A DNA stretch of 64,000 bases from assembly GCA_043821365.1 (NCBI GenBank), contig JBDRCX010000006.1, forward strand, positions 704,001-768,000, given 5' to 3'. The position numbers and the translations under genes are program-made. The stretch is from Candidatus Micrarchaeota archaeon (GTDB lineage Archaea > Micrarchaeota > Micrarchaeia > Anstonellales > Bilamarchaeaceae). Below are positions 12,786-61,305 of this stretch, one piece after another. Positions within the stretch are counted from its first letter, which is position 1. The number at the start of each line of letters is the position of its first letter. The notes beneath the pieces are model-generated. The model made no database searches. It was not told the DNA's origin and saw only the letters and a program-made list of their open reading frames with translations.

Positions 12786-13433
12786 TTATTCTTTTGGTTG
12801 CTCTTCTTTAGGATCTTCTTCTACTGATATTTGTTCAAAGTAGTTTAGATCATAAGTGAATTCTTCGTATGATTTTATCTTACCCTGAGCCATCATCAAT
12901 TCTCTTGAGAGAATGTAGAATATAAGTGCAAGAGATCGTTTTCCTTTGTTGTTTATTGGGATTATATGATCAATGAATTTTGTTTCATTATCAGTATCAC
13001 ACAATGCAATAACAGGAACACCATTTTTTGCACTTTCTATTAATGCCTCATGTTCACCTTTTGGATCACATACCATCACAATTTTTGGTTCCATGAATTT
13101 TTCTACATTCATGTTTGTCATTGTTCCAGGTACAAATCGTCCTTTGACTAGGTTGACTCCAGTGAGTTCAGCAAATTTACTTGCAGGGTTGCTAGAATAG
13201 ACACGGGAAGCAACTATGCACACTTCTTCTGGTTTGTATCTTGCTAATATTTTTGCTGCACTTACCAGTCTTTCTGCACTTTTTCTCAAATCAAGTATGT
13301 AGAGGCCATCGTCTCTTCTTTTGAAGATATAGTCTCTCATATCACTTGTTCTTATCTTGGTGCCAATGTGTACACCGGCTTCAAGAAAGATTTCCTGTTT
13401 TACAGGCATTCCAGTTTTATCTGTTGTTGTCAT
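12786..13433 (-). CDS. rps2: 30S ribosomal protein S2
   Basis: AGVHIGT, GRFVPGTMTN, ALCDTDN, INNKGKRSLAL. Confidence 0.97.
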   Translation of the reverse strand: MTTTDKTGMPVKQEIFLEAGVHIGTKIRTSDMRDYIFKRRDDGLYILDLRKSAERLVSAAKILARYKPEEVCIVASRVYSSNPASKFAELTGVNLVKGRFVPGTMTNMNVEKFMEPKIVMVCDPKGEHEALIESAKNGVPVIALCDTDNETKFIDHIIPINNKGKRSLALIFYILSRELMMAQGKIKSYEEFTYDLNYFEQISVEEDPKEEQPKE

Positions 13434-13450
13434 ATTTTCATCCTCCTGTT

Positions 13451-13470
13451 GTCCTTTTTAGAAAAAGGAC
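13451..13470. repeat. T5/A5 palindromic element
   Basis: GTCC-TTTTT-AG-AAAAA-GGAC followed by CAAAAA. Confidence 0.7.
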
Positions 13471-13557
13471 CAAAAATCTGGTTTTGTTAAGTTTTCCTCT
13501 TCGAGGAAAAATGATTTAACTAAAATCCATCGGATTTTTCATCAACCAGTTTTTTAT

Positions 13558-13581
13558 GTCACTTTTTTCCAAAAAAGTGAC
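13558..13581. repeat. T/A palindromic element abutting the tRNA-Pro 3' end
   Basis: GTCAC-TTTTTT-CC-AAAAAA-GTGAC. Confidence 0.7.
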
Positions 13582-13836
13582 TGGGGCCGCTGAGATATGC
13601 TCCTCCCAACCGCAGGAATTTGTAGTTGAGAAGTTTGAATTTCTTGCGCTTTTTGGTAAAAAGCGCCCAAAAACTTAACTTGCTAATTTTTGCTCGCAAA
13701 GCTCGCAAAAATAGTGTTGCCACCAAAAACCCGATAGGGTTTTTCAACAAAGAATTTTGGAGCGCCTTTTTTCAAAAGGCGCACTCAGATAACAAGCACC
13801 CCAAGCTTGCAGGATACCAGGTTACCTCACGGCCCC
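13582..13836 (-). tRNA. tRNA-Pro(GGG) with two T-arm introns (about 13640-13783 at 53/54 and 13597-13634 at 58/59)
   Basis: Acceptor GGGGCCG/CGGCCCC-A; anticodon stem CAAGC/GCTTG with loop TTGGGGT; T-stem CTGAG/CTCAG. T-loop TTCAAAT is rebuilt from a 5-nt exon at 13635-13639, with BHB-like motifs at both junctions. Confidence 0.85.
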
Positions 13837-14050
13837 AAAGAGGGGACGGTTTTGAACTTAAAGTTCAAATCAACTGCCCCTAAACTTCTAGACATTTGGT
13901 GTGGAAGGTTTTAATATCTATTTTAAACTCGAATGCCAATCTATTTAAATGTTAAAATGTATATTTTATTCTAAGAAATTTGTTTTAAACACAAGTTTCT
14001 AACCCACATATGGGGGTATTTTGTTATCATTTAACAAAAATGGTGATATA

Positions 14051-16379: not shown

Positions 16380-16443
16380 TTTTATTCACCTCATCGAAAT
16401 TCCTATTTCGATTAAGTAAAAATGTACATGCATTTTTACACTG

Positions 16444-16463
16444 CGCTTTTTAGAAAAAAGCGC
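16444..16463. repeat. T5-N3-A5 palindromic element, followed by a GTGGGG/CCCCAC hairpin at 16491-16506
   Basis: GCGC-TTTTT-AGA-AAAAA-GCGC followed by GCAAAAA. Confidence 0.7.
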
Positions 16464-16519
16464 GCAAAAATTTTTTATTTATTTTGGGGTGTGGGGTCTC
16501 CCCCACAAACAAACCAAAA

Positions 16520-30055: not shown

Positions 30056-30170
30056 TGGACACGGAGGGATTTGAACCCCCAGCCTTCCACAGTTTGGCAA
30101 ACTAGTTTTGATCAAACTTTTACTAAAAGTTTGGCGCCAAGCGGATGCTCTACCGTTGAGCTACGTGCCC
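30056..30170 (-). tRNA. tRNA-Ala(GGC) with 43-nt 37/38 intron (30092-30134)
   Basis: GGGCACG/CGTGTCC-A with G3:U70; T-loop TTCAAAT; strict BHB (TTGG/CCAA central helix, CAAAC/GTTTG outer helix). Confidence 0.93.
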
Positions 30171-60966: not shown

Positions 60967-61007
60967 TTTAATCTATTTAATATAACTGAGTAGAAGTATT
61001 TAAAAAA

Positions 61008-61207
61008 CGCCCCAACCGCGATTTGAACGCGGACTACAACCTTTCCTCCCCGAACCTTTTACAATCTTGAGGAAAACTATATTAAAAGGTCCGATCCAAA
61101 ACAAATTATCAAAAACAATCATCGTTTTACGACAATAGGTTCCAGTTCCATTCTTCCTAAAAACGGGGTCGCAGGGTCGTGTCATATCCAGGTTAGACTA
61201 TTGGAGC
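61008..61207 (-). tRNA. tRNA-Arg(GCG) with 126-nt 37/38 intron (61043-61168)
   Basis: GCTCCAA/TTGGGGC-G73; D-loop with A20; anticodon stem CGACC/GGTTG; T-arm CCGCG-TTCAAAT-CGCGG; BHB with one central mismatch. Confidence 0.88.
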
Positions 61208-61305
61208 ACCAACGAACATATTTAAATATATAGCTTTTAAATTATTCCTGCATTTCATGTAGAGAAATCTATAGTTCTTAGAATGCTATAACCTTAGGTG
61301 GTTTG

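What the first reader, a model, noticed from the sequence alone, without database searches (positions are those of the whole stretch)
13582..13836. tRNA-Pro(GGG) split by two T-arm introns around a 5-nucleotide exon, implying ordered splicing
The T-stem halves are 189 nt apart. A canonical T-loop (TTCAAAT) is recovered only if 13640-13783 (144 nt, position 53/54) and 13597-13634 (38 nt, position 58/59) are removed, leaving exon TTCAA (13635-13639). Intron 2 has a BHB with central helix G53TTC/GAGC, bulges AAA and ATA, and outer helix CTTC.CAAC/GTTGGGAG. It needs G53 joined to T54, so it should be complete only after intron 1 is excised. Intron 1 has a relaxed BHB (TCTG/AAGA, 3 of 4 pairs; GCGC/GCGC outer helix). 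Multi-intron tRNAs at non-canonical sites are known in Thermoproteales and ARMAN archaea, but standard tRNA scanners would probably miss this gene.
Basis: partly seen in the sequence, partly recalled or inferred. Interest (0 to 1): 0.75.

Follow-up and report, generated by a model that had tools for sequence, protein, structure and literature searches.

The report
Proline tRNA gene with two T-loop introns
This is the only proline tRNA(GGG) gene of a tiny Micrarchaeota archaeon, split by two enzyme-spliced introns five bases apart in its T-loop; the gene model is right, but the same arrangement was published for the related ARMAN-2 archaeon in 2011, so it is a good example of a known oddity and not a new one.

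Summary
Removing 13640-13783 (144 nt, position 53/54) and 13597-13634 (38 nt, position 58/59) gives a 73-nt tRNA-Pro(GGG). ARAGORN accepts this product and rejects the single-intron product. It is 72/73 identical to an intronless gene in a related genus.

Among 84 orthologues in the same family there are intronless genes, genes with intron 1 only, genes with intron 2 only, and genes with both. The TTCAA micro-exon never varies. The outer helix of intron 2 has compensatory changes at 8 of 8 pairs. The genome encodes an epsilon2-type splicing endonuclease (full-length match to PDB 4FZ2, catalytic triad and specificity lysine kept) and RtcB. No second tRNA-Pro(GGG) was found.

Ordered splicing is only partly supported. 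The two motifs overlap at T54, so both cannot form at once. However, in 28 of 33 two-intron relatives the last base of intron 1 replaces G53 in the helix of intron 2. The dependence on G53 is therefore special to this species and four others.

Fujishima et al. 2011 (PMC3239211, Fig. 1C) already described ARMAN-2 pre-tRNA-Pro(GGG) with T-loop introns at 53/54 and 59/60. Earlier notes of this scan cover this genome's intron-building hairpin repeats, including this same stretch.

The parts
13784..13836 (-). Exon 1: tRNA positions 1-53 (acceptor 5' half, D-arm, anticodon arm with anticodon GGG, 4-nt variable region, 5' T-stem CTGAG)
   Evidence: Read directly. ARAGORN cloverleaf of the spliced product. 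100% identical to the 5' exon of many family members.
13640..13783 (-). Intron 1, 144 nt, between positions 53 and 54. Relaxed bulge-helix-bulge motif (HBh' type). Its interior belongs to a multi-hairpin intron family also found in other tRNA genes of this genome.
   Evidence: Absent from intronless and intron-2-only orthologues. Present at 34-144 nt in 37 orthologues, with helix TCTG/CAGR in 34 of 37. 76% identical over about 155 nt to an intron at G000:C6:414549-414697.
13635..13639 (-). Micro-exon TTCAA: T-loop positions 54-58
   Evidence: Present in all 38 aligned orthologues; T, T and C are listed as invariant columns. Contiguous with G53 in intron-2-only and intronless genes.
13597..13634 (-). 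Intron 2, 38 nt, between positions 58 and 59, with a full bulge-helix-bulge motif
   Evidence: Motif read. Homologous intron of 35-41 nt (37 nt in 27 of 33 two-intron genes) in genera g1, g3 and g6. Covariation. Relatives where C, T or G follows TTCAA fix the 5' splice site at 58/59.
13582..13596 (-). Exon 3: positions 59-73 (AT of the T-loop, 3' T-stem CTCAG, 3' acceptor CGGCCCC, discriminator A). No CCA is encoded.
13786..13789 (-). 5' strand (TCTG) of the central helix of intron 1's motif. A52, G53 and the first intron base form the 5' bulge.
13642..13645 (-). 3' strand (AAGA) of the central helix of intron 1's motif: 3 of 4 pairs here, CAGA or CAGG in most relatives. GCGC at 13646-13649 pairs with GCGC at 13779-13782 as the outer helix.
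   Evidence: The minimum-energy fold pairs the two intron ends over about 10 bp.
13599..13602 (-). 3' strand (GAGC) of the central helix of intron 2's motif. It pairs with G53 (13784) plus T54-C56 (13639-13637). The C at 13599 pairs with G53 but not with the last base of intron 1 (A at 13640).
13603..13633 (-). Outer helix of intron 2 (13633-13625 with 13610-13603) closing a conserved 14-nt loop
   Evidence: Compensatory changes at 8 of 8 pairs; 94.1% of cells paired in this helix. Formed in every minimum-energy fold that contains the intron.
13857..13863 (-). Possible archaeal TATA-like box (CTTTAAG) about 21-27 nt upstream of G1
   Evidence: Sequence only. This is an inference from the usual spacing of archaeal promoters and was not tested.
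13558..13581 (-). 3' trailer hairpin (GTCAC-TTTTTT-GG-AAAAAA-GTGAC) directly after the discriminator base; same stem-CTTTTT-loop-AAAAAG-stem design as the hairpins inside intron 1

Best explanation
The locus is the functional, single-copy tRNA-Pro(GGG) gene of a Micrarchaeota (DPANN) archaeon. It is transcribed from the minus strand as a precursor of about 255 nt or more. Two protein-spliced (bulge-helix-bulge) introns, at positions 53/54 and 58/59, interrupt the T-arm and leave a 5-nt exon, TTCAA.

The genome's epsilon2-type splicing endonuclease cuts within the 3-nt bulges, and RtcB joins the exons. The result is a 73-nt tRNA with the T-loop TTCAAAT.

The two motifs share T54: it is the third bulge base of motif 1 and a helix base of motif 2. 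They therefore cannot both form at once, and the introns must come out in two separate cut-and-join rounds. This also keeps the 5-nt exon attached to a larger piece at every step.

In this species, removing intron 1 first gives the better substrate for the second round (G53-C replaces an A.C mismatch), but the order is probably a preference and not a rule.

Shown here: the gene model, conservation, covariation and presence of the enzymes. Inferred: cleavage at these sites in vivo, two rounds, and the order.
For: - ARAGORN calls the doubly spliced product tRNA-Pro(GGG) and rejects the single-intron product.
- The spliced sequence is 72/73 identical to the intronless gene of G092 and 71/73 identical to that of genus g2.
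- Among 84 family orthologues: in genus g1, 27 genes have both introns, 2 have both plus an anticodon-region intron, 4 have intron 2 without intron 1, and 1 has intron 1 only. Genera g2, g4, g5, g8 and g17 are intronless.
- Intron 1's central helix is TCTG/CAGR in 34 of 37 genes.
- Intron 2's motif: 94.7% of cells are paired, against at most 59.5% when partners are slid; 8 of 8 outer-helix pairs show compensatory changes; 0 of 500 shuffles reach the observed covariation score.
- No second tRNA-Pro(GGG) exon was found in the assembly.
- The 393-aa EndA matches ARMAN-2 EndA (PDB 4FZ2) over its full length at E 3.5e-132. The equivalents of Y236, H251 and K282 and the GTYK loop lysine are conserved (residues from PMC3488258).
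- RtcB is present.
- ARMAN-2 epsilon2 EndA cuts strict and relaxed motifs, including a T-loop intron, in vitro (PMC3239211).
Against: - There is no RNA evidence from this organism for either splice.
- Intron 1's central helix has only 3 of 4 pairs here, and its exon-side outer helix is missing.
- Minimum-energy folds do not reproduce motif 1, nor even the mature cloverleaf.
- The assembly is 87% complete, so a second copy cannot be fully excluded.
Confidence: 0.88

Rival explanations
1. Strictly ordered (recursive) splicing. Intron 2's motif exists only after intron 1 is excised and G53 is joined to T54, so intron 1 must always go first.
For: - In this genome the base that pairs with G53 is a C (13599), and it mismatches the last base of intron 1 (A at 13640).
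- The two motifs overlap at T54.
- An RNA-library contig (run X17) has exactly the 144 nt of intron 1 missing while a 38-nt intron 2 is retained. Among the genomes examined, that intron length occurs only in G000 and G001, and both carry intron 1.
- No DNA with that joined form was found in 40 genus genomes or in the metagenome contigs.
Against: - In 28 of 33 two-intron relatives the last base of intron 1 pairs with a T at that position (20 A-T, 8 G-T). The 4-bp helix is therefore complete in the unspliced precursor, and the dependence is not conserved.
- Epsilon2 endonuclease accepts relaxed motifs (PMC3239211).
- The X17 contig differs at 5 of 57 bases and has a foreign 3' trailer, so it comes from another organism whose DNA is unknown. 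Four genus members lack intron 1 in their DNA.
Confidence: 0.3
2. Single 182-nt intron, giving a mature T-loop TGCATAT.
For: It needs only one splicing event. The bases TGC occur at both ends of the intervening stretch.
Against: - ARAGORN finds no tRNA in this product.
- The loop would have G at position 55 and U at 58, where U55 and A58 are expected. Every intronless relative reads TTCAAAT, or TCCAAAT in one case.
- Relatives carry each intron separately.
- No bulge-helix-bulge motif fits these ends.
Confidence: 0.01
3. Decaying pseudogene disrupted by insertions of the genome's hairpin repeats, with CCN codons read by tRNA-Pro(UGG) alone.
For: - Intron 1 is built from a repeat family that also lies between genes.
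- Intron 1's helix is weakened here (AAGA).
- Only 18 tRNAs pass the Rfam model in this genome.
Against: - The exons are intact and almost identical to intronless orthologues.
- The splice motifs are conserved with covariation across 38 species.
- It is the only GGG isoacceptor found.
- The splicing enzymes are present.
Confidence: 0.04
4. The second intron lies at 59/60, as in ARMAN-2 (exon TTCAAA, 6 nt). An A on both sides of the junction allows either reading in this genome.
For: The mature sequence is the same either way. 59/60-type introns (helix TTCA/TGAA) occur in other genera of the family.
Against: - The 59/60 register gives TTCA/AGCA, only 1 of 4 pairs, against 4 of 4 for 58/59 (and direct reading of the sequence).
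- Homologous introns in relatives start with C, T or G after TTCAA, which fixes the site at 58/59.
Confidence: 0.03

Closest known systems
Pre-tRNA-Pro(GGG) of Candidatus Micrarchaeum acidiphilum ARMAN-2 with two T-loop introns (Fujishima et al. 2011, Nucleic Acids Res 39:9695, PMC3239211, Fig. 1C)
   Same: Same isoacceptor, same phylum, two adjacent introns within the T-loop, first intron at 53/54, bulge-helix-bulge splice motifs, and an epsilon2-type endonuclease in the genome.
   Different: - The second intron is at 58/59 here (5-nt exon) and at 59/60 in ARMAN-2 (6-nt exon). At 58/59 the central helix of motif 2 includes G53, which creates the possible dependence on removal of intron 1.
- Intron 1 is relaxed here, whereas the ARMAN-2 introns were described as strict.
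- Intron 1 is 144 nt here and carries a multi-hairpin repeat module.
- I did not see the ARMAN-2 sequence itself, so homology of the intron sequences is untested.
Multi-intron tRNA genes and intron transposition in Thermoproteales (Sugahara et al. 2008; Fujishima et al. 2010; as summarised in PMC4033280 and PMC4090602)
   Same: Up to three protein-spliced introns per tRNA at non-canonical sites, relaxed motifs, a broad-specificity endonuclease, and similar intron sequences shared among different tRNA genes.
   Different: A different phylum and endonuclease architecture ((alpha-beta)2 there, epsilon2 here). Here the shared module is a hairpin repeat that also occurs outside tRNA genes.
Three-intron tRNA-Ile(UAU) of the red alga Cyanidioschyzon merolae (PMC9602550, PMC3728597)
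   Same: Introns in several arms, including the T-arm, of one tRNA. That work studies how intron removal relates to other maturation steps.
   Different: A eukaryotic nuclear gene and endonuclease, with no 5-nt exon between two T-loop introns. I read only the abstracts.

Membership tests
Archaeal protein-spliced (bulge-helix-bulge) tRNA intron | 4-bp central helix flanked by two 3-nt bulges, with the splice sites after the second bulge base | tested here: met
   Intron 2: GTTC/GAGC, 4 of 4 pairs, bulges AAA and ATA. Intron 1: TCTG/AAGA, 3 of 4 pairs, bulges AGT and AAT, which is a relaxed HBh' form; 34 of 37 relatives have 4 of 4 pairs.
Archaeal protein-spliced (bulge-helix-bulge) tRNA intron | Removal restores a canonical cloverleaf tRNA | tested here: met
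   ARAGORN calls tRNA-Pro(GGG) on the spliced sequence. It is 72/73 identical to an intronless orthologue.
Archaeal protein-spliced (bulge-helix-bulge) tRNA intron | Motif helices maintained by compensatory change among relatives | tested here: met
   8 of 8 outer-helix pairs of intron 2 have changes on both sides; 94.7% of cells paired against at most 59.5% in slid controls. The sequences are related, so the shuffle control overstates significance; the slid control is the fairer one.
Archaeal protein-spliced (bulge-helix-bulge) tRNA intron | Cognate splicing endonuclease and RtcB ligase encoded in the genome | tested here: met
   EndA at G000:C6:408560-409741. RtcB at C6:673872-676544.
Archaeal protein-spliced (bulge-helix-bulge) tRNA intron | Excision observed in RNA | tested here: inconclusive
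   No RNA contig of this organism covers the locus. One RNA-library contig from a relative lacks intron 1 exactly, but its DNA is unknown.
Micrarchaeota tRNA-Pro(GGG) with two T-loop introns (ARMAN-2 type, PMC3239211) | Isoacceptor Pro(GGG) with an intron at 53/54 | tested here: met
Micrarchaeota tRNA-Pro(GGG) with two T-loop introns (ARMAN-2 type, PMC3239211) | Second intron at 59/60 | tested here: not met
   It is at 58/59 here. 59/60-type introns occur in other genera of the same family. The locus is a variant of the published arrangement, not the same one.
Micrarchaeota tRNA-Pro(GGG) with two T-loop introns (ARMAN-2 type, PMC3239211) | Organism belongs to Micrarchaeota | tested here: met
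   Public records carrying the same 5' exon are titled Candidatus Micrarchaeota, Micrarchaeia or Bilamarchaeaceae. The nearest relative, G001, is isolate LFW-283_2. The window's own record name was not shown.
epsilon2-type (three-unit) archaeal splicing endonuclease | Single chain of about 390 aa that aligns over all three units with ARMAN-2 EndA | tested here: met
   Residues 5-393 of 393 align with 4-387 of PDB 4FZ2, E 3.5e-132. 4FZ2 is ARMAN-2 EndA (PMC3488258).
epsilon2-type (three-unit) archaeal splicing endonuclease | Catalytic triad (Y236, H251, K282) and the specificity-loop lysine K161 (GTYK) | tested here: met
   All four positions are identical in the ungapped alignment. Residue numbers are from PMC3488258.

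The most novel reading that the evidence does not exclude
In this species the two overlapping splice motifs enforce recursive splicing. Intron 1 must be cut out and the exons ligated before the endonuclease can recognise intron 2, so the 5-nt exon is never released. On this reading, the groundwater RNA contig with intron 1 precisely missing and intron 2 retained is a natural intermediate of that pathway. That would be the first evidence for an obligatory order of intron removal in an archaeal tRNA.
Probability: 0.3. Interest if true: 0.5.

Novelty: new member of a known kind. Interest (0 to 1): 0.3.

Why it matters
**Annotation.** Neither ARAGORN nor the Rfam tRNA model sees this gene. Without it the genome appears to lack the tRNA that reads CCC and CCU. 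Only 18 tRNAs pass the Rfam model in this genome, and the same fix applies to dozens of related Micrarchaeota genomes.

**Biology.**
- The family-wide set of orthologues (none, intron 1 only, intron 2 only, both, or three introns) is a clean natural series for studying gain and loss of archaeal tRNA introns.
- It could also show how a broad-specificity endonuclease handles two motifs only 5 nt apart.
- The one point beyond the 2011 ARMAN-2 description is the overlap of the two motifs. In most relatives a T in intron 2 can pair either with G53 or with the last base of intron 1. This makes the question of splicing order directly testable in vitro.

Tried and rejected
- **Scanners on the unspliced locus.** ARAGORN, the Rfam gathering search and a permissive Rfam search found no tRNA hit, only chance sRNA matches below threshold.
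- **ARAGORN with long introns on the whole genome**. It missed this gene and gave several doubtful calls, so I did not use it for counts.
- **Single-intron model.** Rejected.
- **Minimum-energy folding** of the precursor, both intermediates and the mature tRNA. The folds do not give the cloverleaf even for the mature sequence, so they cannot decide between splice orders. They only show that intron 2's outer helix and a long pairing of intron 1's two ends are stable.
- **Public reads**.
  - DNA runs X1 and X2 hold the locus piecewise.
  - RNA run X5 covers only the downstream flank, plus a 40-nt stretch with 4 differences that belongs to another organism.
  - No RNA cover of this organism's precursor or product was seen. 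This says nothing about expression.
  - The X17 contig could not be assigned. Its trailer is absent from 40 genus genomes at up to 3 mismatches and from the metagenome contigs. The joined form is also absent from the metagenome contigs. Since the organism itself is not in those collections, these blanks carry no weight.
- **Literature.** A search for an order of intron removal in archaeal multi-intron tRNAs gave nothing relevant. Sugahara et al. 2007 (PMC1852824) is not held, so I could not check whether they discussed order. NAR 2025 (PMC12397907) does not mention two-intron substrates.
- **One script timed out** and was redone more simply.

Full report
**What is there.** Read on the minus strand from 13836 to 13582, the sequence starts with a textbook tRNA 5' part. 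It has the acceptor GGGGCCG, a D-arm, the anticodon stem CAAGC/GCTTG with loop TTGGGGT (anticodon GGG), a 4-nt variable region and the T-stem strand CTGAG, which ends at 13784. The matching T-stem strand CTCAG, the acceptor strand CGGCCCC and the discriminator A lie at 13594-13582, so 189 nt separate the two T-stem strands. A 7-nt T-loop TTCAAAT results only if 13783-13640 (144 nt) and 13634-13597 (38 nt) are both removed, leaving TTCAA (13639-13635).

**Scanners.** ARAGORN finds no tRNA anywhere in the window. The Rfam tRNA model finds only the intron-containing tRNA at 30056-30170. A permissive Rfam search of 13400-14000 gives only chance sub-threshold hits. On sequences spliced in silico, ARAGORN calls the two-intron product tRNA-Pro(GGG). 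It finds nothing in the single-intron product, whose T-loop would be TGCATAT, or in the unspliced locus.

**Splice motifs.** I applied the geometry of the archaeal bulge-helix-bulge motif. On each strand the 4-nt helix strand is followed by a 3-nt bulge, which is cut after its second base. This rule is established knowledge, and the canonical 37/38 intron fits it.
- Intron 2 has the central helix G53-T54-T55-C56 / GAGC (4 of 4 pairs, one G-U), bulges AAA and ATA, and an outer helix of 8 pairs with one bulged T.
- Intron 1 has TCTG / AAGA (3 of 4 pairs), bulges AGT and AAT, and the outer helix GCGC/GCGC. It has no exon-side outer helix, so it is a relaxed HBh' form.
- The 59/60 register for intron 2 gives only 1 of 4 central pairs, so 58/59 is the better placement.

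**Comparative test.** This is the decisive evidence. A DNA search of 99 genomes of the same family found the locus in 94. I extracted 84 orthologous genes; two of these turned out to be the CGG isoacceptor and were left out of the motif counts.
- Genera g2, g4, g5, g8 and g17 have an uninterrupted 73-nt gene that reads CTGAG-TTCAAAT-CTCGG or CTCAG.
- In the window's own genus (g1): 27 genes have both introns, 2 have both plus an anticodon-region intron, 4 have intron 2 but not intron 1 (G018, G020, G025, G039), and 1 has intron 1 only (G026).
- Genus g3 has both introns, and g6 has one gene of each kind.
- Other genera (g11, g12, g14-g16, g21, g22) carry a different T-loop intron whose helix TTCA/TGAA places it at 59/60.

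Each intron therefore exists on its own in close relatives, which is what the two-intron model predicts. The doubly spliced product of this locus is 72/73 identical to the intronless gene of G092 and 71/73 identical to that of genus g2.

Intron 1's central helix is TCTG/CAGR in 34 of 37 genes; only this genome and G004 have AAGA. An alignment of 38 genes across intron 2 (A1) was scored against the motif. It gave 94.7% of cells paired, against at most 59.5% when partners are slid. All 8 outer-helix pairs show compensatory changes, and no shuffle out of 500 reaches the observed covariation score. Because the sequences are related, the slid control is the fairer comparison.

A sample of the whole class shows T-loop introns in Pro tRNAs of other families too. 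One example is a 21-nt 53/54 intron with helix TCCG/CGGA in G152.

**Is it the working gene?** A BLAST of the precursor against the 1.2-Mb assembly (87% complete) finds no second GGG-type exon. The only other Pro tRNA hit is the UGG gene at C2:2712-2787. The exons and both motifs are under evident constraint.

**Enzymes.** The genome has a 393-aa endonuclease ORF (G000:C6:408560-409741). It carries the Pfam catalytic and N-terminal domains and aligns end to end with PDB 4FZ2 at E 3.5e-132. 4FZ2 is the epsilon2 endonuclease of ARMAN-2 (PMC3488258). The catalytic triad positions Y236, H251 and K282 and the GTYK lysine K161, which is responsible for broad specificity, are all identical in the ungapped alignment. 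That enzyme cuts strict and relaxed motifs, including a T-loop intron, in vitro (PMC3239211). RtcB is present.

**Ordered splicing.** Two facts favour sequential processing.
- The motifs overlap. T54 is the third bulge base of motif 1 and a paired base of motif 2, so both cannot be formed at once.
- If both introns were cut before ligation, a free 5-mer would have to be held in place by 3-4 base pairs. This second point is an inference.

The specific claim that intron 2 needs G53 joined to T54 holds only weakly. In this genome the partner base is C13599, which pairs with G53 and mismatches A13640, the last base of intron 1. Among 33 two-intron genes of the 58/59 class, 28 have a T at that position. 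That T pairs both with G53 and with the last base of intron 1 (20 A-T, 8 G-T). Only 5 genes, this one included, have the A.C mismatch. In most relatives the helix is therefore complete before any splicing, and the enzyme family tolerates relaxed motifs. My reading is two rounds, with intron 1 first as the likely but not obligatory order in this species.

**RNA data.** One groundwater metatranscriptome (X17) has a 158-nt contig that runs from a 6-nt leader through exon 1, jumps exactly over the 144 nt of intron 1, continues through TTCAA, a 38-nt intron 2 and exon 3, and ends in a 41-nt trailer.
- It differs at 5 of 57 bases and its trailer is unlike this genome's, so it comes from a relative.
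- Its ungapped 38-nt intron 2 resembles G000 and G001, which are the only genomes examined with that length and which both carry intron 1.
- Four genus members lack intron 1 in their DNA. The contig's trailer is found neither in 40 genus genomes nor in the metagenome contigs, and the joined form is not in the metagenome contigs either.
- Its source organism's DNA is thus unknown. The contig may be a splicing intermediate or a plain intron-less allele, and I give it no weight.

**Intron 1 as part of a repeat family.** In this genome and in G001 intron 1 is 144 nt; it is 34-58 nt in most relatives.
- Its interior is 76% identical over about 155 nt to an intron at the same 53/54 site of a three-intron tRNA-Ile(UAU) gene at C6:414450-414800.
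- It is 71% identical to an intron of another tRNA gene at C6:566953-567070.
- Its 3' hairpin is 100% identical over 31 nt to an intergenic copy at C6:209937-209967.

This agrees with earlier notes of this scan on hairpin repeats that build tRNA introns in this genus. I checked only the copies named here.

**Comparison with what is known.** Fujishima et al. 2011 (PMC3239211, section 13 and Fig. [quoted passage not shown] The present locus has the same isoacceptor in the same phylum, with the same first site and the same enzyme type. It differs in three ways: the second site is 58/59, giving a 5-nt rather than a 6-nt exon and drawing G53 into the second motif; the first motif is relaxed; and intron 1 is enlarged by a repeat module. 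Multi-intron tRNAs and intron spread between tRNA genes are also established for Thermoproteales (PMC4033280, PMC4090602). I found no paper that addresses the order of removal of adjacent archaeal tRNA introns, though key papers are not in the library.

**Verdict.** The ordered-splicing inference is plausible for this species but is neither conserved nor demonstrated. The kind of feature is already published, so the finding rates as a new member of a known kind with modest interest.

Noticed in passing
G000:C6:414450-414800, minus strand (outside the window): A tRNA-Ile(UAU) gene with three introns (37/38, 53/54 and about 59/60). Its 53/54 intron is 76% identical over about 155 nt to intron 1 of tRNA-Pro(GGG), and its T-stem is the same CTGAG/CTCAG. 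So the design with two T-loop introns occurs at least twice in this genome.
   Followed up: partly
window 13645-13675; G000:C6:209937-209967; window 16442-16473: The 3' hairpin of intron 1 (TTTTTGG-GCGC-TTTTT-ACC-AAAAA-GCGC) has a 100% identical 31-nt copy between genes, ending just before a ribosome-binding site and start codon. A similar copy lies in this window upstream of another ATG. The module is therefore not confined to introns.
   Followed up: partly
window 13611-13624 (loop of intron 2); alignment A1 columns 18-31: The 14-nt loop of intron 2 (consensus TACAAACACCTGCG in A1) is nearly invariant across genera g1, g3 and g6, while the stem around it changes freely with compensation. This suggests the loop has a sequence-specific role. 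None was identified.
   Followed up: no
G000:C6:480404-480895 (L080:1291-1782, plus strand): A second, 163-aa ORF with the tRNA-intron endonuclease catalytic domain (PF01974, 46.7 bits), in addition to the epsilon2 enzyme. I did not examine whether it is an extra subunit, a paralogue or inactive.
   Followed up: no
G000:C6:673872-676544 (L170, L171): RtcB matches lie in one 910-aa open frame with about 1.4 kb between profile positions 50 and 45, which looks like an intein-sized in-frame insertion. I checked neither.
   Followed up: no
L088 (G005), L090 (G035), L128 (G069): In these relatives the tRNA-Pro(GGG) gene carries a third intron in the anticodon region as well as both T-loop introns.
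   Followed up: partly
window 30056-30170, minus strand; window 61007-61208, minus strand: The only tRNA in the window that the Rfam model detects (57.4 bits; anticodon GGC, Ala, by ARAGORN) has an intron of about 43-46 nt in the anticodon loop. ARAGORN in long-intron mode also proposes a tRNA-Cys with a 126-nt intron near the window's end; this is unverified.
   Followed up: no
window 13841-13880: Just upstream of the tRNA lies a 40-nt imperfect palindrome (GGGGCAGTTGATTTGAAC TTTAAG TTCAAAACCGTCCCC on the minus strand). It contains the TATA-like TTTAAG. Its function is unknown.
   Followed up: no
run X17, contig laid on window 13582-13638 and 13783-13836: A groundwater RNA-library contig from a close relative has intron 1 precisely absent and intron 2 present, with unprocessed leader and trailer. 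It is either a splicing intermediate or an intron-1-less allele.
   Followed up: partly
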